A stretch of DNA of 64,000 nucleotides. Origin: Gekko japonicus (taxonomy: Eukaryota). Shown one piece after another: positions 16,961 to 55,859 of the stretch. Each line of letters starts with the position of its first letter. The first letter of the stretch is position 1. A program made the translations under genes and the position numbers. Under the pieces are notes generated by a model, which saw only the letters and a program-made list of their open reading frames with translations, was not told the DNA's origin and made no database searches. The stretch spans positions 3,194,725 to 3,258,724 of the forward strand of contig NW_015166418.1 of the NCBI RefSeq assembly GCF_001447785.1, given 5' to 3'.

Positions 16961-17364
16961 CAGGGGTCAATTCGTAGAAAAAGAGGTGCAGGAGCTCATT
17001 AGCATAACTCATTTGCATATGCCACACACCCCGACATCACCGGAAGTGAGTCAGAAGGCAACATCCACCGCTCAGGCTCCACTGGACTATTTTGGATTGC
17101 TAGCTATTGGGGAGGGGGGAACGTGCAGATCTGTCCTCGCAGAGGAGGGAGAGCTTGTACCTGAATAAAACTTGGTCTTAAAGGTGCCACTGGACTGTTT
17201 TGGACCGGGGAGCCAGGGGGAGCTCTGCAACTTACCTGACTGCTTCTTTCTCTGACTGAGGGCTGCTGGGAGCAGGGGGTGGGGCTTGTTGCATGTGCCC
17301 ACCCCCCTGGGCTCTTTACTGCCGGAGCTCTGCTCCTGTGCGCTCCTGCAGGAAATGACCCCTG
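16961..17364. mobile_element. hAT-type non-autonomous element with 8-bp TSD GTCTTGGA
   Basis: TIRs CAGGGGTCAATT / AAATGACCCCTG; exact TSD at 16953-16960 and 17365-17372; a related end fragment lies near 10055-10129. Confidence 0.8.
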
Positions 17365-17702
17365 GTCTTGGAGAATAGCATAGCTGAGTTTCTTGGACAC
17401 TTTGGCTCAAGGAAGTTTTGTATATGCTCTTTGGCCTTTCTCTCTCTCTGTCTCTGTTATTCCCAACCACAGAGAAAGGTGCATACTCTTAACAGGGTAT
17501 CATGTCTACCTGATCAACATGATTCAGCATAACTTACTCAGAAAAGTCAGTCAGAGGGCACTGAAAATTGATGGATAGATTGATATGAAGTCGCCCAAAA
17601 GCAATTAAAAAACTGAACACATCAAGCTACTCTGAGTGGGGGAAAGCCAATGAAATCTTAATCTCCAAACCTCGAAGATAATATCGAAGTCATAGCAAGG
17701 TC

Positions 17703-17914
17703 CTATTTATTTTATTTATACCGTGCCTTCTCCCCAGTGTGGACCCAAAGTGGCTTTACATCAGTCTCTCCTCCTCCATTTTATCCTCACAATAACCCTG
17801 TGAGATAGGTTAGGCTGAGACTGTATGGCTGGCACAAGATCATCCAGCGAGCTTCCAAGAAATAGGAATTCGAACTCAGATCCTAGTCCGACACTCTAAC
17901 CACTACACCGGCTC
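17703..17914 (-). mobile_element. Squam3/CORE-like SINE
   Basis: Reverse complement of the family at 13004-13212. Confidence 0.7.
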
Positions 17915-18029
17915 TGTTAGTACAGTTGTCATCAGCATGCTGACAACATTCAGCTATATATTACTTTGAATAAACCACCACTCTGTCCCAGTGTCTCATT
18001 TTGGTGGTCAAGTAGCAGGGGGGAGAACA

Positions 18030-18790
18030 AACTGAAACCAAATCCAAATAAAATGAAGGTGATGCTGGCTGGAAGACCCACTGATCAAAATGGACTGTTC
18101 TACCACTCCATGGTGCAGTCTTTTGCTGACGGACTCTGTTAAGGGTCTGGTCTCCTGTTGGAAAGTTAGGAAGCAGGTTCCCTATTTGCAGAGGTCTGAA
18201 GGCCTCTTGTTCGGGGCTAGGTTACTGTAACCTATACTACATGGGGCTGCCCTTGAAGACAATCTGGAAACTACAGCTGGTGTAAAATGCAATAGCCCAT
18301 TTATTATTGAGGCCTCTCAACTGGCTGCAATTAGTTTCCAGTGCTGTGCTTACCTATAAAGCATTTCATTACCTGAGGCCCACGTATCTGAAGGACTGAC
18401 TCTCCTGGCACCTTCTCGTGTGGCAGCTTTAGTCTTCTCAGCAAGGTCTCTTGTCAGCACCTCCTTTATCTAAGGCACATTCTGCGATTGTTTAGGCTTC
18501 AGCTTTTCCAGGGGCTGCCTCATGTCCGTAGGACAGCCACCTGGAGGAGGTCACGGGGGCTCTTGCCCTCCTGGCTTTCAAGTGAGACTATAAGATTTAA
18601 TCCGGAGAGCTTTCGGAGGCAGCTCGAACCTGAGCAAGAAGAGGCATATTCTCCTTTGGGGCAGAAGGTGTTTCTAGGTGGCTTCTCAATATTGTTTTAA
18701 TCTCCATTTTTGGCAGATTGTTTTTATATTGTCATTACCTGTCTTTGGTCCTGATGTGCTCAGGAGAAAGGTGGGTATATAAACAAATAA
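18030..18790 (+). mobile_element. Decayed L2-type LINE 3' fragment (a second one near 40128-40400, minus strand)
   Basis: Encodes a YMGLPLKTIWKLQLV.NA-like motif typical of squamate L2 ORF2 C-termini. Confidence 0.6.
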
Positions 18791-19952
18791 ATGAGATTAT
18801 CTATCCTCTCCAGTACCACCAAACAGAACAGCACACTAAAAGAAGCCTAAAGGGCATATAACCTAGGTCACGGAAGACTCTAAGATCTCACTTCCTTCCC
18901 CGCAGCTCACTGTATTCTCTAAGGCAACTCAATAGGGCAAGCCAAGATGACTCAGGATACACAGAGAGTAGCTGCTCCACAACCATGGAATTCCAGTGCA
19001 CTGGGAAGCAAGCAAAATCCAAAGACAAAATGGTCCTGCCTAGGCTTCTTCTCCATGTATGTATGTATGCGTTAAGTCATTATAAGGTTAGGGTAGGGCT
19101 TTGTTTGTACTGAGATACACTGGGGTTGATCCATCGAGCTTTTCACTCAATCCCACCCGATTCCTTTCTTTACTTCAGCACCTGCTCAACCTGGCTTTGG
19201 TCCATGCAGGTTCCATGATCCCCAGCACTGCCTTTTTTGCTTAAAGGAAACCCCTCCTTCCTTTTTCTCTTGCTGAAACGTTGATTGGGTCCAGCTCACT
19301 ATGTTTTTAGCTGTTTTAATTTAGCTTCTAAGTAATTTCTTATTTATTTAAATCCAGGGAGCACAGCAGGCGGCAACATGAAGTGGCAGGGAAGTTTCAT
19401 CCAATTAATGCTGGCGGATTTGTGGTGCACAGGATCATTTCCGGTATATTTTATTTTTAATAACTAATAATAAAAACAGAAAGAAAAATGAAACTACAGG
19501 TAAAGGGGATACAAAGACAATATGGAATGGGAAACATGTTGATAGTAACAGAAAAGAAGCACCAGTTAGAAACGGCAAATTCAGTATTTGGGGGGGGGGG
19601 CATCATGTTAAGATTTTTTTTTTGGAGGCCTGAGATCAAAGAACCTACACAAAATGATTTTTAAATCTTTCCTTGCTAAACACTCGAAATCTGTGGAATA
19701 CTGAGTTTTATGCAATTGCAATAAAACATATTCATTTGTAGGAAAATGAAGCTTAGCATGGATAAACGCTTCCTTGATGATGTTCTGAAATTAATGAATA
19801 TTTAGGAACCAAAGTTATGAACTTCCATGTCTTTCAGCTTTTAATCTTTCTTGGTATACTTTTTATATGGGATTAAGCGATGGAAAATACAAAGTGAAGT
19901 TTTGTTAACCATGGTTAAGCATCACTGGCTGGTGGATGATACTGATGCTTTA

Positions 19953-20068
19953 TGATGTCACTGCTGTCATGGAAACCATATGTGCACACAAATGAAAATG
20001 CCACCTGCTAGTACAAGAGCATGGAAAGCTGAGAGAGGAGGCAACATCTTGAGTGGGGCAGGGTCAGC
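19953..20068 (+). promoter_or_regulatory. Conserved upstream module of AKAP4-like copy 1: CRE-like TGATGTCA (19953-19960), X-box-like GCTGTCATGGAAAC (19963-19976), uORF ATG GAA AGC TGA (20021-20032)
   Basis: Colinear, high-identity match to 33638-33753 upstream of copy 2. Confidence 0.75.
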
Positions 20069-20128
20069 AAAAACTGAAACAAGAACGCTCCACGACCCGG
20101 GGTACAATTCTGGTTTCGGACACCTGGT

Positions 20129-22210
20129 ATGGATCAGGAGACTGACTGGCTAAAAAGTCAAGCCGGTCTTTGCAAAGTAGATCTCTATAGCGCAGAAAGT
20201 CAGAAGGATCAGGATCGTAAAGTGATCTGCTTTGTTGATGTCTCCAGCCTTGACGTGAAAAACAAAAACCAGAAAAGCAAGAGAGCTATTGCTGCCCCTT
20301 CCCCCGAACTTGACCTGCGTAATCTTGAAGAGAAGGAAGTCATTGTAATAAAGGATAACGAGGGAAACCACTCCAATACTGAAGGAGCAGTTTGCCTTTT
20401 CAAGCAAGGCTCCTCTGACGAAGTCAACGTTGTGAGCTGGCTCAGCAACGACCTTCAGAAATACGCAGCTGGATTCCAGCATGCACTAACCCCCTCAAGG
20501 CATCATAAATCTTCTTACAATTCATCTGCAGTTGACAGGATGTCCCAGGGCAGCGACACATCATTTAGGGGCTCTGGGAGCCAAAGAGGAGACGACCTTT
20601 CCTATTACGTTAACAAGCTGTGTTCCTTAGTTGTTCAAATGGCACATAAAGAAATGAAGGATAAATTCGAAGGCAGTGGTAGGTGCATTCGCCAGTCAAT
20701 TAATCCCCGTGGATCTCCAAGCAAGGTTTCATCCAGTGATGAATATGGTAAGCTATCCCCAAAGACCTCTCATGACGATCCCCGGAAGGCTTCACTCTTT
20801 TATGGAGAGATGTCTAATCAGTCTAACCAGAATGCCTACAGACAGGGACAAGACAGACAGATGTGTCAAAGGAAACCGTCGGGAGTGTCGGATGATGGTT
20901 CTGTAAGCAAAGGGCTGATGGTGTATGCAAACCAGGTTGCTTCAGATATGATGTTCTCATTCATGAAGACCATGAAAGTCCAGAAAGGTAAGCATCCTCC
21001 ACCAGCTTGTGTAGTCTTAAAGAAGGTACTCCTCAAACACACCAGAGATGTCATATCTGACTTAATTGACTCCACCATGAAAAATCTACACAACGTCACA
21101 GGAGTACTCATGACAGACTCGGACTTTGTTAATACAGTGAAGAAGAACCTTTTCAATGTGGGAACCCAGAAGTCAACTGAGATTTTGGAAGCAATGGTGA
21201 AACGCTTATTTAAAGCACTGGCAGGGGATGATAAGCACAAATCTCAAAGCCTCGCATTTGCAGCACTGAAGGCAGGCGCTCACTCAGACTCCAGATCTCA
21301 GGGACTCCAATTTGCATCGCTTAAAGGTGAAATGCATGGCCCAGGGAGGGACAGAGGCAATGGACAGATGAGATCTCTTCCAAGTGGAAGCAAAGGCTCA
21401 GACAAGCACTGCTCAATGGATGTGTACGCTAAGGACCTTATTGTAACAGCATTAATGTTAATTCAGCAACACCTCCTGGAAAAAAACAAGGACCAAGGTA
21501 TCCGTGAGACCAACACCACATCATTTGGCTATGTTCATGACAAGTCTGGTGGTTCCAAATACTCTCAAAGACAAGGCGGCGGGAGGCAAGATGCTCACCT
21601 TGAATCACAAAAAGGTGATATATCGAGTATTCTCTTGTCAATCATCCAGAAAGTACTGAGAGAAGCTGGTTTCAGTTCGGATGAAGGGTCCCCCGACAGG
21701 GGCTATAAGCAGCCTCCCTTTAGTGAGAGCAGACAATACAGGGCTTCATCCAAATCAAATGGGAGCCCCGAGATGTACGACAACATGGAACAAATAAACA
21801 AACAGTTTATTGATCAGCTGGTGGAATCTGTGATGAAGCTGTGCTTGTTGATGGCTAACGGCAGCGATTTCGACGGAAGACTTGGAGGAAGACAGCTAGG
21901 TTCAACAAACTCTGAAGTGATTGTGAACAACCAGAATTCCAACAACAGTTCTCAGAACAAAGAGCTGCAAGCTGTGCTCCAGTGGCTGGTTGCTTCACAG
22001 TTCAATGTGCCTAATTTGACATTCATGAATGAGCAAGATGGTGACTTGACCAGGCTTCCTCAGCTGGCTGACAAAGCAGCCAAAAAAGGCTACAGCGTAG
22101 GAGATATAGTTCAGGAGGTGATGCGGTACTACGAGAAACAACAGATGGATGCCATGTCAGGGCAAATGCCTCGGTGTGGACTGGTCGATTGGCTCCTTGC
22201 TAACCTGTAA
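20129..22210 (+). CDS. Intronless AKAP4-like A-kinase anchoring protein, copy 1 (693 aa), nested antisense in PHC3 intron 6
   Basis: Uninterrupted ORF with AKAP3/AKAP4-family motifs: DWL.SQ.G.CKVDLY, QDRKVICFVDVS, TEG.VCLFKQ, DLQKYA.GFQHAL, SKGLMVYANQVASDMM, SDLIDS.MKNLHNVTGVLMTDSDFV, LQAVLQW..ASQFNVP, DWLLANL. Confidence 0.95.
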   Translation: MDQETDWLKSQAGLCKVDLYSAESQKDQDRKVICFVDVSSLDVKNKNQKSKRAIAAPSPELDLRNLEEKEVIVIKDNEGNHSNTEGAVCLFKQGSSDEVNVVSWLSNDLQKYAAGFQHALTPSRHHKSSYNSSAVDRMSQGSDTSFRGSGSQRGDDLSYYVNKLCSLVVQMAHKEMKDKFEGSGRCIRQSINPRGSPSKVSSSDEYGKLSPKTSHDDPRKASLFYGEMSNQSNQNAYRQGQDRQMCQRKPSGVSDDGSVSKGLMVYANQVASDMMFSFMKTMKVQKGKHPPPACVVLKKVLLKHTRDVISDLIDSTMKNLHNVTGVLMTDSDFVNTVKKNLFNVGTQKSTEILEAMVKRLFKALAGDDKHKSQSLAFAALKAGAHSDSRSQGLQFASLKGEMHGPGRDRGNGQMRSLPSGSKGSDKHCSMDVYAKDLIVTALMLIQQHLLEKNKDQGIRETNTTSFGYVHDKSGGSKYSQRQGGGRQDAHLESQKGDISSILLSIIQKVLREAGFSSDEGSPDRGYKQPPFSESRQYRASSKSNGSPEMYDNMEQINKQFIDQLVESVMKLCLLMANGSDFDGRLGGRQLGSTNSEVIVNNQNSNNSSQNKELQAVLQWLVASQFNVPNLTFMNEQDGDLTRLPQLADKAAKKGYSVGDIVQEVMRYYEKQQMDAMSGQMPRCGLVDWLLANL

Positions 22211-22389
22211 GAACCAACTCTTCCCTCTCATGTAACCAACTCTCCCCTCTCATGTTACTTGGTGCCCAGCTGAAGCGCCCAAACCATTCCTTCCTGGCGC
22301 AGAAGATCACCACCACTACAGCCCCATTGCAAGCAACAATGCATTGACTTGAACTGTCTGATTAAAATGGGTAGCTGGGCAAGCTCATC

Positions 22390-22413
22390 AATAAAAAAAG
22401 AATAAAAAAAAAA
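22390..22413 (+). terminator. Polyadenylation signal(s) of AKAP4-like copy 1 (AATAAA at 22390 and 22401) in an A-rich tract
   Basis: About 180 nt after the stop; preceded by AGCTGGGCAA..TCATC, which is shared with copy 2. Confidence 0.7.
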
Positions 22414-24629
22414 GTGAGGGGTAGACAGACTGTTTTATTGATCACTTCAACAAAGCTTTATAAACAGGTTCCATCTAGCTATATAATTATATATACTTGC
22501 CTAAGCAATCCAAAAATACTGCACTAAGAAAATCTGAACTGCAAGGTTTCGGTGCCACCCAGGATTTCTGGCATCCCCATAGGCTGATAAGGAAACTGGG
22601 GGAAGGGGGGAGTCAGAGAAAGACGGGGAAGGGAAAGCTGTGGGTGATTCCACCAAGTATGTTTTCACAGCAGTTCTTATTTTCAGCCACAACTGTCATG
22701 AAAGTAGTAGTTGCTACAACTTTCCAGCTGGCTCCAAATGAGATAGTGTTAATTTTGGAAAGAAGCGTTCTGTGGTCACTGTGAGAATCTTCTAGATCCA
22801 GAAAATAAATGAGAGGGTAACGCATTAGACTTCTCTGTTCTTAAAAGATCCTCTTGTCTTTCTCAGGGCAGGAAGAGAATTCAGCTAATAAGCTGTTGGG
22901 CAGACTGCTCACTGTGAGAGTTAAGGGAGACTCTCTCCACTTCTCTGGTTTTCCTGACACTGACGCAACCCGGTTGCTTACACTAAGGAAATGTATAAAC
23001 TCGGTATTGCTAAGGTGGGATTACACCATATTTCCTTTGTTCTACTGGTGAATCTTGTTCATTTTTCCTGGGCCTTATAGAATAATGTATCTAAAATATG
23101 AAGGGTCCCCCCCCCCCAAAGAGGCATACTGCTTGATGCCAAGAGGCAGGAGATTGGGGAAAATGAATGGGAGGCCCACAGTTTGAGCTCATGGAATACA
23201 GTTTGCTTCCATGAAACATCTAGATAGACCTATATTCTAGCTGCATTTGGTGCACCTTAGTTTCTCTTGCTCTCCCTGGCATATTAAACGTGCCTTCATA
23301 ATGACAGCCGTTTAATGCTAAACTGCAGGCAATAAAGGGCATTAAACAGAGATTATGGGAGCATCAGCCATTTTGAGCCTGTTGTGCACTGTCTTAGACC
23401 TGCATCTTGTTCATTCTTGCATAATGAAAAACAATTCATTAGCTGTGCTAGTTGGAAGCTTCAATAGTTATCGTCTGTGAACTAAACTGAACCCAACGTG
23501 TTAGTACACCACAGCACACTGTGGAAATTAAAAGCTCACTGGCACTTGTTTACAACGAGGAAGCTTGGAGACAGGAAGATGGAGACTACCGCAATAAACT
23601 TCTGCAGGTATTTTCAAGATACAGCTTGCCAATGAGTTTGCATTTAAATCTTTACATATTTTTCAGGTATAAAACATATTGCCATATATCCACGTCTCAT
23701 CCTTTAGGATGAGCAGTAAATACAGCTTGCAAATACTTCCTATTTTCTACCCTCCATGGTGCCATCTCCTGAGGCTATCGCCTTATATTTTGTTTCAAAA
23801 AGCACAGTTTTTCATAGGTAATTTATTTTCTGGTTCTGAAATCTGTACACAAGACACACCCAGTATCAGTGATTAACAGGCTTGGGGGTGTGACAGTAAA
23901 GACCCACTGAGGGGCCCCACAGGCAACTAGCATCACCATTTTGGCTCTCTCTTTGCCCAGTACTTCTGACCATACTAGCCCCCAGCCAAGGAAGAACACA
24001 CCTTAGCAATTCTTTACTCACTTGTGCAACCTCCTCCTCTCTTTAGAGCATCTCACATCTCACACTAACATACACCAAGCAAATTAAGAAGACAAATTGC
24101 TGAAATCATACAAGAGCTTCAAAAAACTGGAGTCAGCCTTGGTACAAGAGCATACACAAGCAAAGTGAGTATCTTTTAATGCAAAACTTTGCCTCCTTCC
24201 ACAGGGCAACAGTCTAAAAAAACTTATCACACCAGGTTTGGGAAAGATCTGAGCAAAATGGGGAAGTCTGGATAGTGGACAATTAGGAGATGACATTGTG
24301 TGAAGGCTAAAAAAACTCATTTAAGTCTACACTGGAGAAAACCTTAGTGTGGAAGCTACTTTTATTTAATGTGAAGGTCAGTATGATGCTCTAACAAATC
24401 TAATGGAAGCAAACAGGAGAAAAAGGCAAGAATATTCAGCAAGTGCAAGAAAGCTGGTACTCAATTGAGTATCTGGTACTCTAATGCGAGACAGACCATG
24501 AGCACAGGAGTATCTTGTACAAAGGTGCTGTTATTTTAGGAGACTGTTAGCAAATTTCAACACTACTCACTACCAGTATTCCTCTTTCTTAGCCAACCTG
24601 TTGCTTAGGCTCAGATTAAAAGTAACAAT

Positions 24630-26303
24630 GGTCCCGGTCACACGGGCCGGAAAATGCAGGGGGGAAGCGTGGCTGTTTGCCCCGGAGCAAAGTAACGCGC
24701 AGCAGCCTGATTACATGTCCCGTGGCAGTCCCATGAGTATGACGTTAAGTGCCGATCACATGGCTATCCTGCAGCGCGGCAAAGAAGCGGCGCGGCGCAA
24801 TCACGCTGGCAATTGCTAGGCGCCGTTTCCGTGGCAAACAAGAATTTTTTTCCCTCAGTGGAGGGGGGTAAGCAGTGGGGTACCACAGGGATCAGTACTT
24901 GGTCCACTGCTTTTTAACTTGTTCATTAATGATTTGGAGTTGGGAGTAAGCAGTGAAGTGGCTAAATTTGCAGATGATACGAAGTTGTTCAGGGTGGTGA
25001 AAACCAGTGAGGATTGTGAGGCACTCCAAAGGGATCTGTCAAAGATGGGCAAGTGAGCGTCAACATGGCAAATGGGGTTCAATGTGGCCAAGTGCAAGGT
25101 GATGCACATTGGAGCCAAAAATCCTAAATATAAATACACGTTGATGGGGTCTGAACTGGCAGAGACTGATCAAGAGAAAGATCTTGGAGTTGTAGTAGGT
25201 AACTCACTGAAAATGTCGAGACAGTGTGTGACTGCAATAAAGAAGGCCAATGCTATGCTGGGGATTATTAGGAAGGGTATTGAAAACAGATCAGCCAATA
25301 TCATAATGCCCCTATATAAATCAATGGTGCGACCTCATTTGGAATACTGTGTGCAATTCTGGTCACCACACCTTAAAAAGGATATTATAGCTTTGGAAAA
25401 AGTGAAGAAAAGGGCAACTCAAAGGATAAAAGGGTTGGAACACTTTCCCTATGAGGAAAGGTTAAGGCGCTTAGGGCTCTTTAGCTTGGAGAAACGACGA
25501 CTGAGGGGTGACATGATTGAGGTTTATAAGATTATGCATGGGAAAGAGCAGGTAGAGAAAGAGGTACTTTTCTCCCTTTCTCACAGTACAAGAACTCGTG
25601 GGCACTCCATGAAATTGCTGAGCAGTCGGGTTAGAACGGATAAAAGGAAGTACTTCTTCACCCAAAGAGTGATTAACACTTGGAATTCACTGCCACAGGA
25701 AGTGGTGGTGGCTACAAGCATGGACGGCTTCAAAAGGGAATTAGATAAGCATATGGAGCAGAGGTCCATCAGTGGCTATTAGCCACAAGGTATAGATAGG
25801 GACTCTGGGGCAAGTGATGCTCTGTCTTCTTGGTGCTTGGGGGGGGTCAACAGTGGGAGGGCTTCTAATGTCCTGGCCCCACTGGTGGACCTCCTGATGG
25901 CACTGGTATTTCTGGCCACAGAGTGTTGGACTGGATGGGCCTTTGGCCTGATCCAACATTGGCATCTCTTATGTTCTTATGTTCAGTGTGCGCATGTGCC
26001 AGTGGGCGTTTGTGCGCATCCTGTGGAGACTTAAAAAAAAAAATTCGGTTTGCGACAGGACATGGGCGGGCGCCGGATGCCATGGGATTCCAGGGGAAAC
26101 GCGATCAGATGCTGCCCTTGCCCCGCGTTTTCTGGAAACTAGCACATCGGATGTACTAGTTTTTTCCTCCGTATCTTTGGCAAGAAGCCACAGGTTAGTC
26201 ATGGGTGCACTACGCTTCCCAGATGTTGCGGTGTGATCGCACCCGGAAAAACTGCCTATCATCCGTATCTTTAGTGCGGCAAATGCTCCGTGTGAACGGG
26301 GCC
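24630..26303 (+). mobile_element. PIF/Harbinger-like MITE interrupted by the CR1
   Basis: Terminal inverted repeats (TIRs) GGTCCCGGTCACACGG / CCGTGTGAACGGGGCC with 3-bp AAT on both sides. The two halves are homologous to the uninterrupted copy at 47644-48152. Confidence 0.8.
24855..25982 (+). mobile_element. 5'-truncated CR1 LINE (C-terminal ORF2 plus 3' UTR)
   Basis: SGVPQGSVLGPLLF, KFADDTKL, LYKSMVRPHLEYCVQFWSP and YEERL..LGLFSLEKRRLRGD motifs; one in-frame stop near 25054; ends in CTTATGTTCTTATG repeats. Confidence 0.95.
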
Positions 26304-26396
26304 AATAATGTAAAACCATTTAACAATATAAACATTATGAACATACAAACAGAACACAGACATATAGAACGTCCTCACACCTATCTCTACTCAATG

Positions 26397-26662
26397 AAAG
26401 CTTGGTGTAGTGGTTAGGAGAGTGGTCTCTAATATGGGAGAACTGGGTTTCGATTCCCCAATGCTCCACATGCAGCTATTGGTGTGACCTTGGGTGAGTT
26501 ACAAGTTGCTTCAGAGCTGTTCTCTCATGAGCAGTTCTTGAAAGAGCTCTCTCAACCCCACCTACCTCACAGGGTGTCTGTTGTGGGGAGGGGAAGGGGA
26601 AGGAGATTGTAAGCCGCTCTGAGACTCCTTGCAGTAGTGAAGGGCGGGATATAAATCCTATC
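26397..26662 (+). mobile_element. Squam3-like SINE (long variant)
   Basis: GGTGTAGTGGTTAGGAG head, CCCACCTACCTCACAGGGTGTCTGTTGTGGGG, GGGCGGGATATAAAT end. Confidence 0.75.
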
Positions 26663-29600
26663 TCTTCTGGTAAAATTCATGCTGTTTTTGGGAAATGCAC
26701 CATATTGGATTCCGGAAGACTGTCAAACAGAAGAGCATCTGGAGCAAGAATGCCCTTTTACATCCTGACTTATTTTTCTTTCTTAACATATGTACTAATA
26801 AATGAGCGGGAAGGAAGGCAGAATGACCTCATTAGATCTTGGAAGCTAAGTCAGGATAGTACATGGATGGGAGACCCACCAAGGAAGACTCTGCAGAAGA
26901 AGGCAATGGGAAACCACCTCTCTTTTTCACTTGTCTTGAAAGCCCCTTGCTGGGGTCGCTGTGAACTGGCTGCAACTTGACAACACTTTACACACACATC
27001 ATCTGTAAATCTCTGAACCCATGGCACAACACAGAAAAGGCAGTTTCTAAGGCTGACCTTCTCAAACAGTAGGGTGTGCCTCAGGGAGGGGCAGACAAGA
27101 AGCTTGAGGAAGCACATTATTTTCTCCTACATCAATTGAGATCTGGATATGGTGGCACAGTTGTCAAAGAAACAAGGTGGCCCTGGAGTGAGTGCATGCC
27201 CAATCCAACTTCCTGAATTCTGCAACAGACTATATGAATGCAACTCTGTGTAATGAACTCCATGTGCTCACTCACCGAGCAGACAGTTGATAATGGACTG
27301 GGAGACTCAGAAGGTAAAGCAAGCCTGACCTTGTACATCCATTGCAGGGCACCACTTCTCAGAGTGTCTCCAACATGCCATGAAACATCTTTCTCTCTGC
27401 CTCTTTTATATCTGTACTGAACCCAACACTTGCTATTTTGCGTCCACTGGGATGGCCCTAGCATTACTGTTAAACAATATACCTGTGAGACTTTGCATGT
27501 CCTTGGTGTTTCATTTCCATTGGGCTGCTCCCTATGTAAAGTACCTATGCAGGCTTAGTTAGCATGCCAGAGTCTACAGCCCAGGCAGGTGGCACATGGA
27601 TGTACTAGCCAAGCATGCATAGCTGCTTTGCATGAGTACCAGCCCTATTTAAATAAGAAAATCCAAACAACAAGCGAAGAAGACTAGTGTCACAGGAGTC
27701 CCAAATATACAAGTTCCACTAGTAGAAAACACCATCAAAGATTGCCAAAACAATATATTAAACAATTATAAAGTTGGTGGTGTCACAACAACAACATTAA
27801 TGCATACTGTAACTATAATAAGGCATAAGATACATAAAGTCCATGTACTCAGTGTAACTTGATAACTTGATAGGAGTCCACATAGTCATAACATATTCCA
27901 AACAGCCTTTGCAAAGAGGCCCATTTTAGATATTTGGAAGATGCGTTTCCTTCGACTTCTCCAGTTTGCCGGCTGTGTAAGTGGAACCTGATTTCAGCAA
28001 TTTCAACAGACCACAAGGTTCATAGTGTAAGAAGCTCTGGATTGGGAAACCTATGATTCCGTTCTTACACTTAGCTATGGTAAATAAATATAACTTCAGG
28101 TTAAAGCTTGGGTAACTCTAAATGCTAGATGCTAGAGACATACAGACAATGGGGGAGAATTATTACTTTCTTCCCCAGCTTCAAGGAAGCATCAAGCTCA
28201 TTAAGGTTGGAAACAGCATGATCCTTGGCTTGATGGAACAAAACTTCTTTTGTTCTTATAGGAGGAAGTTTCAGTAAACTTTGTAGAACTTGACTCTGTA
28301 AACAAGCAAGAGGATTAAGCAGAAAAAATGGTCTTAAAAAGCCATGAAATGATGGAAGTCACTTGGGATCCCTCCATTAGGGAGAAGGAGAATGAACGAA
28401 GTTAATAAAAAACCAAAACAAATGTTGCCATATACATTCTCTTCTCTACCGGTGTGTATAACTTGAGTACACAAACATTTGTTCATGCTAGGGATGGCCA
28501 CAAATCGGCTGACAAACTGAAGTTTGTCACAAATCTTGGCCCGTTTGGGAGTTTGCTCAGCGGTTTGGATTAAATGGAAATCAAGGTTGCCTTTGCCCTC
28601 TCTTCCCCACAACTGAGAATGCAAGGAGTGAAAGGCGAGGAAGCCCAACCAAACACTCACTCTCTGTTCTGACCTTTTCCCAATGCCAGTCACTCACTGT
28701 CAACAGAAACAGGCAGCTCTTTTGGCGAGCAATATTTGTCTGGTCCACTTGTGTTTCTTCAATAATACCCCCGCCAAGAGTGAGTGAGTGAGCAACAGCA
28801 GCTCCCTCCTTGCCAGAACACCTATAGAAGAAGAATGTGAAGCACATGCTTTGGAAAGGACTCTTCAAGCTGCTCCAGACTGTACGTGCTGCCAGCACTG
28901 AGAGAGAGAGAGGGAGAAGAGAGGCTCAATCTCCTATTTTCCTGGCCTCAGCTTCTAAGAGGCAGTCATTGATATTCTAAGGACGGGGTGAATTTACACA
29001 CTAATTTATCTCTGGCCATTGAAGCCAAAATATTACTGGAATATTGCCATTAGGTCAGTGGACAAGACTGAATGAGCATCTTTCATTCAAGTTGACAGCT
29101 GGTATAGCTCTCTCTCTCACCTCTTTCTCACCTGGTGACAACTTTTTAAACTCCCAAATAAGGGGAGCTCCTTTTCAACCACTGAGCTCCAGTACTTGAA
29201 ATGCCCCAGGCAGAGAAATTTGGCCTACTTAAACAGAGAGCAATTTTTCCCCTAGAAAATATTTGAGGCTTGCTTCTTCTCTTTTTTTTTGTTGTCAGCC
29301 AATTAGTGTTACCCATCCTTAGTCCTGAAGCAGTATGCCCCTCAATAGGCTCTTAGCATGGACTCAACCCCAATGGGACCATTGGTCTACTATCAGTTAA
29401 GGTCCTAGATCTTCGCTTAGGTAACTGTCAGTTTCTGGCCTAGGCTGTCTGGCTCCCTTCTCTACCTACAATCCATAAAAATGCATCAGAATGCTTCATA
29501 TTTTCAAAGCATTTCAGGATGTTTGAAGCACCTCATGTAGTTCTCTCGATAAACCCATTTAATGCTAGTTACCCCTCATTTTGCAGACAGAGGGGGTTGA

Positions 29601-29785
29601 GAGATAATGGCTTGCCTAAGGTCTCCTTGGTGAATTTCTGCAAGATTTTAAACAAGAAACTGCCAAATTCACACTTCAAGCAACTACAGTATGATCACCT
29701 GCCGGCCCTGCTGCCCATTTCCCCCCTTCATCCTGCTTCAGGCTCCCTCAAACAGAACCTGAAGTTTTGACTGACCAGTCTGGAG

Positions 29786-29954
29786 CAGTGTTCCCTCTAA
29801 GCAGAGTTAGTGTGAACTAGTTCACAGGTTTTTTGGCCTCCAGCTCACACATTTTTGTCTTAGCTCAGGAAAGGTGGCTCCGGAGCGAATTAATTTATGC
29901 AGTACCCAAATTGCTCACTAACAACTTTAATGCCATAGATTAGAGGGAACATTG
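29786..29954. mobile_element. hAT MITE (TIR CAGTGTTCCCTCTAA)
   Basis: TIRs plus near-perfect 8-bp TSD GTCTGGAG/ATCTGGAG. Confidence 0.8.
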
Positions 29955-31718
29955 ATCTGGAGTGCCCTTTCTTAGAAATCTGCTTCCAGTGCTTATCCTA
30001 GTCTTCTTCAGCACTCACTGCTGATGTTATCCTTCAGCCTGCTAAGACTTGCATACCAAAGCAACCTGGAGTGATTGAACTACCTACAGCTCAGTGGCTG
30101 ACACTCTGATGTGGTACAAGCGTCTCAACAATTCACATAACTGGCCAAATTGCTTTAAAATCTCAGAAGAAAGCTGACAGATAAGGGGGGATCAAATGGT
30201 TTGGAAATACATATTCTCTGCATATCAACAGTGTCATAGGACAACACCTAAACTCTCTTCCTAGCAAATACTGAAATCTTTCTAAAGTTTTAGGTCAAAT
30301 CAATAGCAAACCCATTTATTTAGTCTACTCTGCCCTGTACTGTAACTCTTAATACAGAGGCAGCTCTACGGACTCCTTCAGCAATGGCTGCCGCCTCTTC
30401 TTCATGCACCAGGGGACATTACCATGGTTTCTGGAAAAAGCAGTGCAAAATGTTCCAACGGCAGCAAGCTGTTCACATTGAATGATGAGACTGCATAAAA
30501 CTCTACTGTGGGCGAGCTGTAGTAGGTAGTTGTTAAAAAATATAGCTGAAGCTGTATCCATGGCAACTGTTCTCCATGCAGCCTTAATTTGCAGTTCCAA
30601 AGATCCCTGCTGCAGGGCAAGGTGCTTTTTAGGTTTATTATTGGCAGCTTGTATACCTTATTTCCATACTAAACTGGCATACATGAAGTTAACACTAACT
30701 GAGCAGCAGTCCCAGTTGTTTTACTTCCCCGAAATGGTCTGGACTCCTGCTTAATTAAAGTTCAAGCAAAATTAAGACTCGGTCTAGACAAAAATGATGG
30801 CATATTAACAAAAAGATCTCCTTTTCTTTTTAAAAATTGCAAATAGGTTCAGGTGAACAGGATACATTCAGATCAGGACCCTGGCACAGGAGGCTTAATC
30901 TCTGCTCTTTGTGCTCTTTTTATACTACCAGTTTCCTCGGTGGGCTTATCTGCCCATGCCCAGAGGAAAAAGGTAGCAGCCTCCATTCTTCATTCCTATG
31001 AGCAGGCTTCAATGTTCTAAAGATAGAAGGGATATCTGTATGCTTTCAGAAATTCTACACCACCCTGAGAGTGTCCTCCAGCCCCAGAACAAACTCTTGG
31101 GGGGGACTTCACTCTCACTCACAGCACCAACGTGCCCCAAAGAAGCTGGGACACAATAAATTCCGGTCCTCCTACACAATGGGGTTTGGCAGCCAATGCA
31201 ACATTTTCATGCAGTATATGGCTAGGGAATTAAGTAGGAAAAGACCAGAGCGTGGGCAAAGACAACATTCTTGGTATTAACACCATAATCTGTGCAAAAG
31301 AGCATAACTCCTGCAAACAGAAAACTAGCAGGCCAGGAAGAAGGGTTCACAGCCCAGCCTTTGTGCACTCATACTATTTTTCTACATAAAGTCCCCCTTT
31401 AGTAGGGAGAGCTCAAAGCAGCAACCTCACCCCTACACCCTGAACACGTATACCACCAGCGTAAAGTGACACAGTCCAGGAAATGCTTTATCACTTAATC
31501 CTGCCAACTGTATAAATTAGTCCTATGACTCTGCAGCCAATTATGTAAAGAAGATTAATCTCAGGCCAATTTGCATGCTTCGCACTGTCAGACACTGGCT
31601 ACTGAATCGCTGAAAGCTGAATCTGCCGCTAACTGATTAACATATTATTTTTCTTCATATCCATATTTCTGTTCACCCTACATTGCTCAACATATTTTTG
31701 GAAGATTCGCTTCGTGAG

Positions 31719-31925
31719 CAGTGTTCCCTCTAAGCTGAGTTAGTGTGAGCTAGCTCACAGTTTTTTAGCCTCCGGCTCACACATTTTTTGTCTTAGCTCA
31801 GGAAGGACGGCTCCAGAGCAAGCTAATTTATGCAGTAGCCAAATCGCTTGCTCACAACTTTAATGCCAGAAGCCCACAAAGAAGGATTTTTGCTCACAAG
31901 TCTCCACAGCTTAGAGGGAGCATTG
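31719..31925. mobile_element. hAT MITE, same family as 29786-29954
   Basis: TIRs plus TSD TTCGTGAG/TTTGTGAG. Confidence 0.8.
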
Positions 31926-32029
31926 TTTGTGAGCACATAAAGAAACAACTAGAAGCCTGCTCTACCGAAGTTTTAACATTCTGAATCTCCCAGATCCAAC
32001 CACATTATGCCCTGGCCTGGATGATCCAG

Positions 32030-32208
32030 ACTAGCGCAATCTCGTCAGATCTCGAAAGCTAAGCAGGGGCGGCCCTGGTGAGTACATGGATGGCAGTCAA
32101 AGGCTGCTCTGCAGAGGCAGGCGATGGCACCTCTGTTGGTCTCTTGCCTTGCAAACCCTACGGGGTTGCCATGAGTTGGCTGCAACTTGACAACACTTTA
32201 CATACACA
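32030..32208 (+). mobile_element. 5S rRNA-derived SINE (related copies near 26822-26998 and 37324-37468)
   Basis: ATCTCGTCAGATCTCG.AAGCTAAGCAGGG..GGCCCTGGT.AGTAC.TGGATGG matches the 5S rRNA internal region, followed by a shared non-5S tail ending ..CACTTTACACACAC. Confidence 0.75.
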
Positions 32209-33637
32209 TAACCGTATTATAGCCAGATCTCAGAAAACACACCCAAAGGCTACAAATATACCCTGGCAATGAAGTTTTATATATGAACACTCATGTGTTT
32301 TCTATTAGCATGGTCAATACCAGGCAGAAGCTGATCTGCTGTTCTAATTCTAGTGATTAGGTATTTTATTTTATGGCCTTAGTTTCCTGGGTTCCATTTT
32401 GTTGGTTTAAACATTTGTGACTGTTGGGATGATTGAATCTTAATTGAAAAGCCGTTTTGAGGGTCCTTGTGAAAAAAAGCAGGGTACAAATACTGACAAG
32501 GAAAAAAGGAGAGAAACCCGAACAAATAAAGGTGCTCTGGTGTCTCAAGACTGTTGGTCTTCGAGATATATCCCTGAATGACTGTCAGCTACACAGCCTC
32601 TTTCCTCAATATTTTTTTCAATAGAAACAAGAGGGTTGGGCTGTACATTCTTGTACAGCTTCCATATTCCTCAGATTAACCAGTTTAGCTGGTGAAAAAA
32701 CTGTTGGAAGATAACTTTTCATTTAAATTATGGAACTGCAATTTCTTCAGCTCTTTAATAGAGAAGCCCCTCTTCTCACTCACTATCCATAAAGACACAT
32801 AGCTCTCGAGAAAAGATAATACGTCTGGTATATAGAGCAATATTTGTTGCATGGGCCTTGGAGAACACTAAGTTGGCTAACATTTTCTACTGGAGACGTC
32901 TGCTGGAGAATACGCACAACCTTTTGGGAGCATCACAGGATCCCTCTTTAGGCAAAATGAGAAGTGAAAGACAATGTCAGACATAAGCTAATATCACCCC
33001 ACCTTGAGCACATCCTCTAGAGAGGAGGCATAGGCATTTCCTAAATAAAAATTAATGTATCACCATGCAGTTCCCTTAAGCAGATTATGATAAATCTATC
33101 AACGGCCACTAGTCAAGGCAGCTAAAACTGTCCACACCAGCTGCTTTCTAAGATAAGAAGTGGCAAACTTCTCATTTGTGCCTTTGTGTACCAGGAAGGT
33201 CCTTTCGGCTGTCTGCGTGCACCCAATGCAGTAGTTTACTCATGAGTAGACTTGTTGGTGAAGAGCTGCAACATCTCCTGTCAGCAGATCTATTCATACA
33301 AGTGTAATCCATCCGGCCACTTAAAATATCCCCCCCACACATACACACAATATCGGAGTTACGTGAGAGTCAGTACCCAACAAATGTGTTTCAAAGTTGT
33401 GACATTGCCTTTGTTGTTATGGTTAGAAATACATTATGATTAAATGTAGAAATCAACCACTTCCAGTTCTCAAAATTAGTTGCAGTGAATGCAGCATTAA
33501 TTTCCCTGTATACACACACATCAAATTTCTGATAGGTTGAACAGGAAGGATGGTGGGGGTGGGAGAAAGACCGTTTATCAGTCCCTTGTTAAATAACTGA
33601 AACTGCACCACTGATGGCTGGCAATGCTGCTTCTTTG

Positions 33638-33753
33638 TGATGTCACCGCTGCCATAGAAACCATGTGTGCACACAAGTGAAAATGACATCTGGCAGCAGA
33701 AGAGCATGGAAAGTTGAGAGAGGAGGCAACATCTTCAGTCTGGCAGGGTCATC
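33638..33753 (+). promoter_or_regulatory. Conserved upstream module of AKAP4-like copy 2: TGATGTCA (33638-33645), X-box-like GCTGCCATAGAAAC (33648-33661), uORF ATG GAA AGT TGA (33706-33717)
   Basis: Colinear, high-identity match to 19953-20068. Confidence 0.75.
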
Positions 33754-33822
33754 AAAGCAGCTTAGGTGAGAAAGAACACCCCCTACGGTCCTAGGTACAG
33801 TTCCACTTCCAAGCCTCAAGCG

Positions 33823-36174
33823 ATGTCTCAGGAAGTTGACTGGTTACACAGCCAAGCTGGTGTGTGTAAGGTCGAACTCTACAACCCTGATGGAGGGAAA
33901 GACCAGGACCGGAAAGTGATTTGTTTTGTTGATGTCGCCAGCCTGAACATAAAAAGCACAGATGATAAAGATGCTGCTGGCCAGTCCAAAGACAGTGAAC
34001 CTGCCACAGGACTTGATCTGGGAAAAATGCAGGACAAAGAGGTCATTGTAATAAAAGATAGTGAGACACCCGAGCAGTCTAAGACTGAAGGAGCCGTATG
34101 CCTTTTCAAACAAGGTTCAACAGAAGAACTTAATGTTGTGACCTGGCTCTTTGATGACCTACAGAAATATGCATGTGGATTTCAACATGCACTGACCCCT
34201 TCTTCGAGCTCCCCTCGTCAACCTAAACCATCAGCAGCTGACAAGATGTCCCAGAACAACAACAACACGGCTTTCAAATCTTCCACTGGTCAGAAAGTAC
34301 CTGCAGATGAAGTAGCAGGCACCGTCCAAAAGCTCTGTTCTTTGGTTATGCAAATGGCCAGTAAAGAGATCTCTGAAAATTTGGAAGATGCAGCCAGCAA
34401 GTGTATACGCCAGGCAATTTATGCCACAAAAGATGGGAAACCTCTCAATCCTGGTTCTGTAAGTCAGGTTGCATCCAAGATGGTGAATGATGCCATGGAA
34501 AATGCTCAGGATCCCAGCGCTAAGTCTTCTCAAGACAAGCTTTCGGGCAAGAAGGAAGAAGGTAAAGGAGGTCCCAAGAAAACCTCTCTCTTTTATGGTG
34601 AAGTATGTTCCAACCAAAGTGAATCTATTCAGGAAGAAGAAACAAAGCTACCATGTACTCAAATAAGCCACCAAAAGAGACAGTCAGCTCGCAATGATGG
34701 TAGCTCCTTTAACAAAGGGCTAATGGTTTATGCTAACAAAGATGCTAAGGATATGACATTTTCATTTGTGAAGGCCACAAAGGTTCACAAGAGGCAGCCA
34801 CTGCCAGCCTGTGTGGTTTTGAAAAGAGTGTTCCTTAAGCACACAAGGGATGTCATATCAGACTTAATTGATTCTACAATGAAAAATCTACATAATGTCA
34901 CTGGAGTCCTAATGACAGACTCTGACTTTGTTACTACAGTTAAGAAGAATCTCTTCAATACAGGAACTCAGAAGTCAACTGAGATTTTAGAAGCAATGGT
35001 ACTACGAATGTATAATGCTCTGATGTCAGAAACTAAGGACAAAGGGCATAGTCTTGTATACTCTTTACTAAAAACAGGATGTACAATGGACCCAAATTCT
35101 CAAAGTATGCATTTCGCATCTCTGAAAGGTGGACTACATGCGAGGGAAAAGGGAAAGGAGGCACCACACTCATCGGCCCAGAAAGTAGGTGAGACAATAA
35201 TTAAAGACGGAATTAGCATGCTACGCTCAAAAACATCGGGAGGCAAAGGTCCAGACAAGGGATGTCATGACAGGAGGTCAGAGAAAAGTAACTCCACAAC
35301 TGAATTTCTAGCAAAAGACCTCATCTTGACAGCTTTAATGATGATTCAGCAGCATCTGTTAACTCAGCACAAGGAACCAATTTCTGAGTCAAATACTTCT
35401 TCATTTGGGTATTTTGAAAAAGGAGGCAAACATGGTTCTAGATCTCATGGTTGCAAGGGTGATCCACAGCAACAGGAATTCCAGAAAGGAGAAATACAAA
35501 GCGCTCTCCTTTCTATAATCTCAAAGGTCCTACAAGAGGCTGGTTTCAATGTAGATGAGTGTGAGATAAGCAAGAAACCCAATTCATGTGATGAGAGGAC
35601 TACCAGAAAGTCTTCATCCAAACACTACAGTTCAGAGATGGACTCTGAAAACATGGATCAAATAAACAAGAAATTCATCGATCAGCTGATGGAATCTGTG
35701 ATGAAGCTGTGTATGTACATGACTAAAAGTCCCGATTTTGTTGTGGAAGATTACTCTGATGAACAAGGAACATGCTTTACTGCAAGAAACAAAGGTGCAT
35801 CAACTCCAGATTCAATGACATCACAGAAACCTCCACGACCAACATCTATTGGAAAGCCACTGGTGCCTGCAGGCTCTGAGGTGATAGTGAACAACCAGAG
35901 TTCCAACACCAGTATGCAGAACAAAGAGCTCCAGGCTATCCTCCAGTGGATGGCTGCCTCCCACTTCCAAGTGCCCAACCTCACATTCATGAATGAGAAT
36001 GATGAGGAACTGAAGAAGCTTCCTCAGCTTGCGGACAAAGCAGCTAAGAAGGGTTCAAGTGTGGGAGATATTCTGCAGGAGGTAATGAGGTATTTTGAAA
36101 AACAACAGATTGATGCCGCTGTGGGAAACATGCCTCGTGGCGGACTTCTCGACTGGTTGCTTGTTAATCTGTAG
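33823..36174 (+). CDS. Intronless AKAP4-like A-kinase anchoring protein, copy 2 (783 aa from MSQEVDW), nested antisense in PHC3 intron 6
   Basis: The track ORF starts at a GTG (33766). The first ATG, at 33823, aligns with the copy 1 start and with AKAP4 MSDDIDW. The same family motifs run through to DWLLVNL-stop. Confidence 0.95.
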   Translation: MSQEVDWLHSQAGVCKVELYNPDGGKDQDRKVICFVDVASLNIKSTDDKDAAGQSKDSEPATGLDLGKMQDKEVIVIKDSETPEQSKTEGAVCLFKQGSTEELNVVTWLFDDLQKYACGFQHALTPSSSSPRQPKPSAADKMSQNNNNTAFKSSTGQKVPADEVAGTVQKLCSLVMQMASKEISENLEDAASKCIRQAIYATKDGKPLNPGSVSQVASKMVNDAMENAQDPSAKSSQDKLSGKKEEGKGGPKKTSLFYGEVCSNQSESIQEEETKLPCTQISHQKRQSARNDGSSFNKGLMVYANKDAKDMTFSFVKATKVHKRQPLPACVVLKRVFLKHTRDVISDLIDSTMKNLHNVTGVLMTDSDFVTTVKKNLFNTGTQKSTEILEAMVLRMYNALMSETKDKGHSLVYSLLKTGCTMDPNSQSMHFASLKGGLHAREKGKEAPHSSAQKVGETIIKDGISMLRSKTSGGKGPDKGCHDRRSEKSNSTTEFLAKDLILTALMMIQQHLLTQHKEPISESNTSSFGYFEKGGKHGSRSHGCKGDPQQQEFQKGEIQSALLSIISKVLQEAGFNVDECEISKKPNSCDERTTRKSSSKHYSSEMDSENMDQINKKFIDQLMESVMKLCMYMTKSPDFVVEDYSDEQGTCFTARNKGASTPDSMTSQKPPRPTSIGKPLVPAGSEVIVNNQSSNTSMQNKELQAILQWMAASHFQVPNLTFMNENDEELKKLPQLADKAAKKGSSVGDILQEVMRYFEKQQIDAAVGNMPRGGLLDWLLVNL

Positions 36175-36320
36175 ACAAGAGCCAACACCTCCCTCTCATT
36201 ACTTCCACCCAGCGAAGTGCCACCTTAGTTATTGGATGGAACAACCATACAGCTCATTTTCCATAGACAACACTTCATCAAATTCCACAGGCTGTAACAC
36301 ACTAGCTGGGCAAAGTCATC

Positions 36321-36330
36321 AATAAAAAAA
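36321..36330 (+). terminator. Polyadenylation signal of AKAP4-like copy 2
   Basis: AATAAAAAAA about 146 nt after the stop, in the same context as copy 1. Confidence 0.7.
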
Positions 36331-36341
36331 TACAAATGTCA

Positions 36342-39500: not shown

Positions 39501-39676
39501 AATTAAAAACAAGGGCATCCTTTGTGGGGGATCAGTTTTCCCGGTGTATGCAGCAGGATCATATTTTGATAGACCATAAAACATAATACACACAAGGAGA
39601 AGAACTGCGTGCCGATTTCTTGCAACAGTTCACAGTGAAATGGATACACGCACACACAAAATCCAAGCAAGCTCAC

Positions 39677-55858: not shown

Positions 55859-55859
55859 T

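What the first reader, a model, noticed from the sequence alone, without database searches (positions are those of the whole stretch)
19953..33753. Shared CRE-like + RFX X-box module upstream of both AKAP4-like copies
Seen in sequence: about 115 bp upstream of each ORF align colinearly with few mismatches (19953-20068 vs 33638-33753), while sequence further upstream does not obviously align. Each block starts with TGATGTCA, then a 2-bp spacer, then GCTG(T/C)CAT(G/A)GAAAC, 176 and 185 bp before the ATG. Established knowledge: TGACGTCA-type sites bind CREM-tau and GTTNCCATGGNAAC-type X-boxes bind RFX2; both are core spermatid/flagellar regulators. Inference: this is a compact spermatid promoter under purifying selection. 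Retrocopies normally lack promoters, so it was either carried in from a longer parental transcript or acquired before the duplication.
Basis: partly seen in the sequence, partly recalled or inferred. Interest (0 to 1): 0.75.

Follow-up and report, generated by a model that had tools for sequence, protein, structure and literature searches.

The report
Conserved promoter of twin sperm genes
Two ancient side-by-side copies of a sperm-tail scaffold gene, tucked inside an intron of another gene in a gecko, share a short, strongly conserved stretch just before their start codons that is most likely their promoter and the beginning of their message, built from familiar kinds of testis control motifs.

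Summary
The two blocks align without gaps at 100 of 116 bases, against 77 of 165 four-fold synonymous sites in the ORFs (Fisher p 5e-12). Motifs and distances are as stated. Both single-exon AKAP4-like ORFs lie antisense in one 24.9-kb PHC3 intron. They are two paralog types found across squamates, apparently older than the tuatara split, and PHC3-linked in turtles and crocodilians too. A snake-type record keeps copy-1 states over 72 bases of the block, so this is selection, not recent conversion. Best reading: a proximal promoter plus 5' leader, shared simply through tandem duplication. TGATGTCA is a known weaker CRE. The X-box is imperfect. Published motif positions put the start site inside the block, so much of it, including the best-conserved 36 bases with a three-codon uORF, is probably transcribed. 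Binding, start site and expression are untested. Mouse Akap4 is absent from the CREM-bound and RFX2 tables. Known kinds of parts; the nested reptile gene array was not found in my literature searches.

The parts
14808..39676 (-). PHC3 intron (24,869 bases) that holds both AKAP4-like genes in antisense
   Evidence: tblastn of four gecko PHC3 proteins places exons at 39793-39665 and 14807-14559 with nothing between; GT donor and AG acceptor read
19903..19952 (+). weakly conserved upstream shoulder, copy 1 (partner 33586-33637)
   Evidence: 31 of 49 aligned, z 4.3, 0 of 300 shuffles
19953..20068 (+). conserved block, copy 1: proximal promoter and probable start of the 5' leader
   Evidence: 100 of 116 vs copy 2; 19992-20063 needs at least 3 base changes to fit record P0290
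19953..19960 (+). TG-variant CRE-like octamer, copy 1
   Evidence: variant described in PMC1796609
19963..19976 (+). imperfect X-box-like 14-mer, copy 1
   Evidence: 2 mismatches to recalled palindrome, 1 to recalled relaxed consensus
20015..20050 (+). best-conserved 36-base purine-rich segment, copy 1 (partner 33700-33735)
   Evidence: 35 of 36
20021..20032 (+). three-codon upstream ORF (Met-Glu-Ser-stop) in strong start context, copy 1
20069..20128 (+). leader between block and ATG, copy 1 (partner 33754-33822)
   Evidence: z 4.1 between copies; off-frame translations of related loci P0062, P0067, P0290 match it
20129..22210 (+). AKAP4-like ORF, type B, 693 aa, single exon
   Evidence: (AKAP_110, E 1.9e-81)
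22211..22399 (+). 3' UTR, copy 1, ending in a 28-base conserved element with AATAAA at 22390
   Evidence: (22372-22399 vs 36303-36330, 26 of 28)
33586..33637 (+). upstream shoulder, copy 2
33638..33753 (+). conserved block, copy 2
33638..33645 (+). TG-variant CRE-like octamer, copy 2
33648..33661 (+). imperfect X-box-like 14-mer, copy 2
33706..33717 (+). three-codon upstream ORF (Met-Glu-Ser-stop), copy 2; differs from copy 1 by one synonymous base
33823..36174 (+). AKAP4-like ORF, type A, 783 aa, single exon
   Evidence: (AKAP_110, E 3.9e-78)
36175..36330 (+). 3' UTR, copy 2, with AATAAA at 36321

Best explanation
The block is the TATA-less proximal promoter and first part of the 5' leader of an intronless AKAP4-like gene, copied by an old tandem DNA duplication inside a PHC3 intron and held by purifying selection in both copies. 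Shown: the constraint, the nesting, the age and the motifs. Inferred: a CREB/CREM/ATF-type dimer (CREM-tau in spermatids) binds the TG-variant CRE, an RFX dimer binds the adjacent imperfect X-box, and transcription starts some 10-30 bases downstream of the X-box (about 19986-20002 and 33671-33687). The remaining 65-80 conserved bases would then be downstream core promoter and 5' UTR, where the three-codon uORF may damp or delay translation. My separate odds: constraint 0.95; promoter or start-site region 0.8; CRE bound by a CREB-family factor 0.55; RFX binding 0.5; both needed together 0.3.
For: 100 of 116 vs 77 of 165 four-fold sites, and vs 19 of 30 at the least diverged N-terminal four-fold sites, p 0.007. 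ORFs intact, dN 0.32 and dS 1.53 over 682 codons. Homology between copies spans only shoulder to poly(A) signal. Types A and B each recur in geckos, skinks, lacertids, iguanians and snakes; B groups with tuatara (100/100) and an A+B clade is rejected, p-AU 0.015. P0290 matches copy 1 at 21 of 24 off-frame codons in the block; simulations reached 21 in 0 of 5000 runs at 70% base identity and 0.3% at 80%. No CpG island nearby, no conserved splice donor or acceptor on the + strand, and the host runs the other way, so a local promoter is needed. CRE plus X-box adjacency is rare in shuffles. Both base changes inside the X-box fall on degenerate positions of the recalled relaxed consensus (1 mismatch in each copy). 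CRE variant and position: PMC1796609. RFX peak at -16 in testis genes and CREB peak at -45: PMC2249607. Mouse Akap3 CREM peak at -15. Most CREM-regulated promoters lack TATA, 6 of 58 having one (PMC3091680).
Against: No expression, start-site or binding data. No vertebrate DNA collection was available, and P0290 does not cover the CRE or X-box, so their conservation across species is unchecked. P0290 is one unnamed record, found by a search that can only find conserved cases. Mouse Akap4 is not CREM-bound and not in the RFX2 tables; only 9 CREM-occupied genes drop in Rfx2 knockouts. CREM peaks centre near -150, which would put the start site near the ATG instead. The strongest conservation lies outside the two motifs. 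Three to five out-of-frame or short uATGs lie in the block; in copy 1 three of them open a frame overlapping the main start, awkward if all are transcribed. A better lone X-box (1 mismatch) lies at 30554 with no gene beside it, showing that such matches occur alone. The AU test named its group after the tree was seen, and type A has a long branch.
Confidence: 0.65

Rival explanations
1. The block is conserved mainly as RNA: a 5' leader that controls when the message is translated in spermatids, through the three-codon uORF and protein-binding purine-rich sequence. The real promoter lies further up and the two motifs are incidental.
For: The best-conserved 36 bases hold a Met-Glu-Ser-stop uORF in strong context in both copies. 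The one paralog difference in it is synonymous, and the single base change that gives P0290's reading turns one stop codon into another; only 3 of 36 single changes (3 of 12 transitions) keep peptide and stop. Mouse Akap4 has two 5' UTR variants (PMC6930371), whose cited title reports different polysome loading. The 3' UTRs are conserved too.
Against: The uORF was noticed after the fact and the P0290 bases are inferred from a protein. Nothing aligns upstream of about -226 where a promoter would have to be. No RNA structure: folding z from -0.7 to +1.8 in 8 of 8 tests, no Rfam match. The CRE starts almost exactly at the sharp 5' edge of high identity. This reading is compatible with the best one for the 3' part of the block.
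Confidence: 0.15
2. It is the promoter, but other factors read it: the octamer is also an ATF2/Jun-type site and contains a TALE half-site, and the block holds a metal-response-like core and a nuclear-receptor half-site (all recalled motifs).
For: Mouse Akap4 is not a listed direct target of CREM or RFX2. Jun and CRE motifs are both enriched in round-spermatid promoters (bioRxiv 10.1101/822874). X-box has a fixed off-consensus base.
Against: These motifs are short and expected by chance; no call tested them. The CRE and X-box pair at fixed spacing is rarer than any of them.
Confidence: 0.12
3. The high identity comes from gene conversion between the tandem copies and not from selection.
For: Turtle and crocodilian copies group by lineage, as concerted evolution or repeated duplication would give. 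N-terminal four-fold sites are slightly more alike than the rest (19 of 30 vs 58 of 135, p 0.07). Mismatch clustering in the block is weak.
Against: P0290 needs at least 3 base changes to fit copy 1 but at least 12 to fit copy 2 over the same 72 bases, so the differences between copies are older than the gecko-snake split. A and B N-termini and leaders stay type-specific across squamates.
Confidence: 0.04
4. The block serves the host gene PHC3 on the minus strand, as a cryptic exon acceptor or intronic enhancer carried along by the duplication.
For: On the minus strand the purine-rich segment reads as a pyrimidine tract followed by acceptor-like AG sites at 20029 and 20008 in copy 1 and 33690 in copy 2.
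Against: Such sites occur at 3.7 per kb in this intron (91 in 24,869 bases). The 20029 site is lost in copy 2 and no strong conserved donor follows. Of 137 PHC3 proteins, 135 join the downstream exon directly from known exons and 2 from what look like intron read-ins; none shows a cassette from the block. The block keeps a near-fixed distance to the AKAP ATG.
Confidence: 0.04

Closest known systems
TG-variant cAMP response element (TGATGTCA), PMC1796609
   Same: Exact octamer in both copies, within about 180 bases of the ATG.
   Different: Described there for mammalian promoters at large; here it abuts an X-box-like site at a 2-base spacing, and binding is untested.
RFX2 X-box promoters of mouse spermatids, PMC4498915 and PMC2249607
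   Same: 14-base imperfect inverted repeat with a good right half, in a testis-type gene, TATA-less.
   Different: Left half carries an off-consensus C; mouse Akap4 is not in the RFX2 tables; RFX2 and CREM targets rarely overlap in mouse.
Mouse Akap3 promoter (CREM peak at -15, CRE with at most one mismatch), PMC3091680 supplement
   Same: Same protein family, same kind of imperfect CRE near the 5' end.
   Different: The reptile genes are closer to AKAP4 (no AKAP3-named protein among the 120 listed); no sequence homology between the promoters could be tested.
Retrogenes with inherited or newly gained promoters, and orphan retrogenes, PMC4772013
   Same: Intronless ORF inside another gene's intron, with its own upstream element; no separate reptile AKAP4 seen among listed hits.
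   Different: Here the retrocopy has since been multiplied by DNA duplication into an array (two types in squamates, two or more in turtles, up to five records named for alligator), and parent loss is not demonstrated.
MHC class II X1/X2 boxes (RFX site beside a CREB-type site; recalled, not from a call)
   Same: An RFX-type and a CRE-type site directly adjacent.
   Different: No S or Y box was looked for; RFX5 complex and CIITA are not implied; the resemblance is a lead only.

Membership tests
cAMP response element (TG variant) | octamer TGATGTCA or its reverse complement | tested here: met
   exact at 19953 and 33638; 6 further copies of this octamer or the canonical one elsewhere in the window
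cAMP response element (TG variant) | lies within about 150 bases upstream of a start site | not testable with these tools
   no transcript data; position relative to ATG is compatible
cAMP response element (TG variant) | bound by CREB/CREM/ATF dimers | not testable with these tools
   mouse Akap4 not bound, Akap3 bound
RFX X-box | 14-base imperfect palindrome matching the consensus | tested here: inconclusive
   2 mismatches to the recalled palindrome, 1 to a recalled relaxed consensus; 5 sites with at most 2 mismatches in the 64 kb, 2 of them these; no consensus string was found in PMC5838959
RFX X-box | close to the start site and bound by an RFX dimer | not testable with these tools
   no start-site or binding data
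AKAP3/AKAP4 (AKAP_110) proteins | Pfam PF05716 domain and full-length similarity to AKAP4 | tested here: met
   E 1.9e-81 and 3.9e-78; 39-43% identity over the full length to mouse and echidna AKAP4
Retrogene | ORF without introns | tested here: met
   8 of 8 homologs, including two mammalian AKAP4, align end to end in one piece to each ORF
Retrogene | intron-bearing parent or outgroup ortholog at another locus | not testable with these tools
   multi-exon, X-linked mammalian AKAP4 is recalled; indirect support only from splice variants and mention of exons and rat isoforms with and without a 9-residue first piece
Retrogene | poly(A) remnant and target-site duplication | tested here: inconclusive
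   A-rich runs follow AATAAA in both copies but the insertion is too old for remnants to be trusted; no flanking duplication among the 20 largest repeat families shown
Retrogene | intact ORF under purifying selection | tested here: met
   dN 0.32, dS 1.53; intact orthologs across squamates
Orphan retrogene | parent gene lost in the lineage | tested here: inconclusive
Conserved upstream ORF | start, frame and stop kept with synonymous-type changes | tested here: inconclusive
   three-codon uORF kept in 2 of 2 copies and compatible with P0290; chance about 0.06 if changes are transitions; post hoc
Structured cis-regulatory RNA | stable fold with covariation, or an Rfam match | tested here: not met
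MHC class II-type SXY module | S, X1, X2 and Y boxes at fixed spacing | not tested
   only the adjacency of RFX-like and CRE-like sites was seen; comparison recalled

The most novel reading that the evidence does not exclude
In all non-avian reptiles AKAP4 survives only as an orphan retrogene array nested in one PHC3 intron, which replaced the parental gene before lizards, turtles and crocodilians split. It is driven by a fixed-spacing CRE/X-box element on which CREM and RFX bind cooperatively, joining two spermatid programmes that are nearly separate in mouse, and is followed by a conserved three-codon uORF that times translation. The array may have been lost in birds along with the ribs and columns of the fibrous sheath.
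Probability: 0.15. Interest if true: 0.62.

Novelty: new member of a known kind. Interest (0 to 1): 0.4.

Why it matters
If right, it hands over a 116-base candidate spermatid promoter for a reptile, pre-filtered by more than 200 million years of paralog divergence (date recalled), with two named sites and a uORF that can each be mutated. It would show that CREM- and RFX-type control of the fibrous sheath reaches back to early reptiles. The setting may be the more useful result: reptile 'AKAP4' appears to be an intronless array nested in PHC3, so it is not a simple one-to-one counterpart of the mammalian gene. The parts themselves (variant CRE, X-box, uORF, nested retrogene, tandem duplication) are all of known kinds, which caps the surprise.

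Tried and rejected
Coding signature in the block: 6 of the first 7 mismatches share one codon position, but no frame gives a convincing peptide in both copies; an 18-19 codon upstream frame has mostly non-synonymous changes. RNA structure: two-sequence consensus fold is weak, folding z not below -0.7, and Rfam finds only a tRNA-like hit elsewhere. Spliced leader: a donor-like and an acceptor-like site in copy 2 lie only 28 bases apart and are absent from copy 1. TATA box: none in either 330-base upstream region; initiator-like matches are not conserved. Conserved overlapping uORF in type B: the frame is open in copy 1 and P0290, but P0062 implies a frameshift in the leader. Third AKAP copy or stray block in the window: none. 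Profile search with the off-frame translation gave 7 hits; 1 (P0290) is a real leader match, the other 6 are long proteins with 6-12 repeated stretches and were set aside unread. No turtle or crocodilian leader record was recovered. First tree attempt with 61 rows did not finish; trees used 44 rows and 23 rows, a subset chosen for taxon spread, under LG+G4 without the mixture model. Literature: AKAP4+PHC3 0 papers; AKAP4+reptile+intronless 1 paper, not on point; RFX2+Akap4+ChIP-seq+spermatid 0; AKAP4 and AKAP3 absent from 6 of 6 searchable supplements of a bird gene-loss paper; no paper giving the mammalian AKAP4 exon count or promoter sequence was found.


Full report
What is there. The window is squamate DNA, gecko by protein affinity: the two long ORFs are 94% and 91% identical to Heteronotia proteins. 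PHC3 runs on the minus strand across the window. Two single-exon ORFs, 20129-22210 (693 aa) and 33823-36174 (783 aa), lie on the plus strand inside one PHC3 intron, 14808-39676. Both carry Pfam AKAP_110, and the nearest named mammalian proteins are AKAP4, with no AKAP3-named record among the 120 listed in either search. They are 59% identical (405 of 682 aligned residues), with dN 0.32 and dS 1.53.

The observation. The blocks 19953-20068 and 33638-33753 align without a gap at 100 of 116. Homology between the copies runs from about -226 to the poly(A) signal and drops to background outside. It includes a weak 50-base shoulder, the 60-69 bases before the ATG, and the 3' UTR with a 26 of 28 element at AATAAA. 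Within the block the segments score 21 of 24 (CRE plus X-box), 22 of 24, 8 of 14, 35 of 36 and 14 of 18; this unevenness is only borderline (joint p 0.049).

Age and setting. The two ORFs belong to two types, A (copy 2) and B (copy 1), each a fully supported clade spanning geckos, skinks, lacertids, iguanians and snakes (44 rows, 23 rows). B groups with tuatara (100/100), and a clade of A plus B without tuatara is rejected (p-AU 0.015), so the duplication seems older than the squamate-tuatara split. The group was named after seeing the tree and A has a long stem, so this is likely and not certain. Linkage to PHC3 is reptile-wide. Accession numbers are consecutive or nearly so in python, green turtle, gharial, alligator and Heteronotia. 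In Candoia they are about 1,400 apart though on the same chromosome, and one alligator-named cluster lists a different contig length. Same-contig evidence shows linkage, not nesting, outside this window. No bird protein appears among the 120 listed hits of either search, even with an alligator query where mammals at 42-44% are listed; 142 and 144 further hits were not shown. A review notes that neognath birds lack the ribs and columns of the fibrous sheath (PMC11276731, passages).

Selection, not conversion. No vertebrate DNA could be searched, so I searched protein space with an off-frame translation of the block. One of 7 hits, P0290, is the same frame read from a related locus: 38 of 55 identical to copy 1 and 14 of 25 to copy 2. 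Its tail overlaps the main ORF out of frame and fits the B-type N-termini of 3 of 3 snakes with no conflict, against 2-5 conflicts for the other 28 sequences tried. Over 19992-20063 it needs at least 3 base changes to fit copy 1 and at least 12 to fit copy 2; 21 of 24 codons agree, reached in 0 of 5000 simulations at 70% base identity. So the 3' two-thirds of the block is conserved between a gecko and, by inference, a snake, and the differences between the copies are old. Extended N-termini of P0062, P0067, P0002 and P0297 show the same for the last part of the leader. None of these covers the CRE or the X-box.

The motifs. TGATGTCA is described as a functional, lower-affinity CRE and was one of only two CRE forms with significant bias to the 150 bases before human start sites (PMC1796609, abstract and passages). 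The X-box-like 14-mer has 2 mismatches to the recalled palindrome and 1 to a recalled relaxed consensus; both differences between copies sit on degenerate positions. The pair within 10 bases occurs only here in the window and at 2.4e-4 to 7e-4 per 116 bases in 60 shuffles; the two copies count as one event and the choice of motif pair is uncorrected. Mouse evidence is mixed. Akap4 falls by log2 5.5 in Crem knockouts but is marked not bound (PMC3285179, section 7 part 1 of 2) and is absent from the CREM-bound table, while Akap3 has a peak at -15 with a non-full CRE (PMC3091680, passages and supplements). Akap4 is absent from the 4 searchable supplements of the RFX2 ChIP paper, which also reports that only 9 CREM-occupied genes drop in Rfx2 knockouts (PMC4498915, passages and supplements). 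The supplement of a second RFX2 paper could not be read and may bear on this (PMC4745085, passages only). CRE, Jun and RFX motifs are all enriched in round-spermatid BRDT peaks (bioRxiv 10.1101/822874, passages; supplements closed).

How it most likely works. The host gene runs the other way, there is no CpG island and no conserved splice site on the plus strand, so each gene needs a local promoter, and this block is the only conserved upstream sequence. Peaks of CREB sites at -45 and of RFX sites at -16 in testis genes (PMC2249607, passages) put the start site at about 19986-20002 and 33671-33687. CREM ChIP peaks centre near -150, which would move it towards the ATG. On the first estimate only the first 35-50 bases are promoter and the rest is core promoter and 5' UTR. 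The best-conserved 36 bases contain a Met-Glu-Ser-stop uORF in strong context. Its one paralog difference is synonymous, and the single change that yields P0290's reading swaps one stop codon for another; 3 of 12 transitions would keep it. That is suggestive and post hoc. Mouse Akap4 has two 5' UTR variants (PMC6930371, passages). No RNA structure was found.

Origin. The intronless state points to retroposition if mammalian AKAP4 has introns; that is recalled, with only indirect support (PMC4430963, passages). Two independent insertions into the same intron in the same direction are unlikely, so the block is shared because a working gene was duplicated as DNA. Whether the first retrocopy brought the element or gained it cannot be told here. 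In mammals about 3% of expressed retrocopies inherited a parental promoter and about 86% have novel ones (PMC4772013, section 6 and passages), though a parent with two 5' ends makes inheritance feasible.

Known or new. Each part is of a known kind. I found no paper on the nested array or its promoter, and the AKAP evolution paper read does not mention it in the passages seen (PMC12083921); the library lacks most subscription journals, and NCBI already annotates the genes as AKAP4-like. PMC4676127 (passages), PMC4290089 (supplement search) and PMC5838959 (passages) added nothing. Verdict: real constraint, probably promoter plus leader, factor identities unproven; new member of a known kind; interest 0.4.

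Noticed in passing
window 14808-39676: The AKAP4-like array is PHC3-linked in 23 of 23 reptile species checked, with two types in squamates, two or more in turtles and up to five alligator-named records; no separate reptile AKAP4 was seen among listed hits, so it may be an orphan retrogene family.
   Followed up: partly
(no window coordinate): No bird protein among the 120 listed hits of either AKAP4-like search, although birds are abundant among PHC3 hits; possible loss or fast divergence in birds.
   Followed up: partly
window 20021-20032 and 33706-33717: Three-codon uORF in strong start context inside the best-conserved 36 bases; both observed or inferred changes keep it.
   Followed up: partly
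window 22372-22399 and 36303-36330: A 28-base element at the poly(A) signal is 26 of 28 identical between the copies; a candidate 3' end or translation-control element.
   Followed up: no
window 30554-30567: A lone X-box-like 14-mer with 1 mismatch to the recalled palindrome, better than those in the block, 3.1 kb upstream of copy 2; enhancer or chance.
   Followed up: no
window 19904-19918: A near-palindrome around CCATGG just upstream of the copy 1 block, not kept in copy 2 and with the wrong spacing for an X-box.
   Followed up: no
window 33823-36174: Type A has a long stem (0.5 changes per column) and then very short branches across squamates, suggesting a burst of change after duplication followed by strong constraint.
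   Followed up: no
window 51477-51549 (-): tRNA-like sequence called Ala with anticodon GGC, in a PHC3 intron and overlapping a repeat found elsewhere in the window; probably a tRNA-derived SINE.
   Followed up: no
window 24880-25790 and 55432-55962: ORF-bearing stretches that look like LINE fragments (recalled resemblance; no Pfam match); the first sits between the two AKAP4-like genes.
   Followed up: no
window 36342-36526: A recent 77-base tandem duplication (99% identical) just after the copy 2 poly(A) signal, and a 22-base one at 22212-22255 in the copy 1 3' UTR.
   Followed up: no
window 9137-9302: A run of 166 N next to a PHC3 exon; an assembly gap that may hide the exon's start.
   Followed up: no
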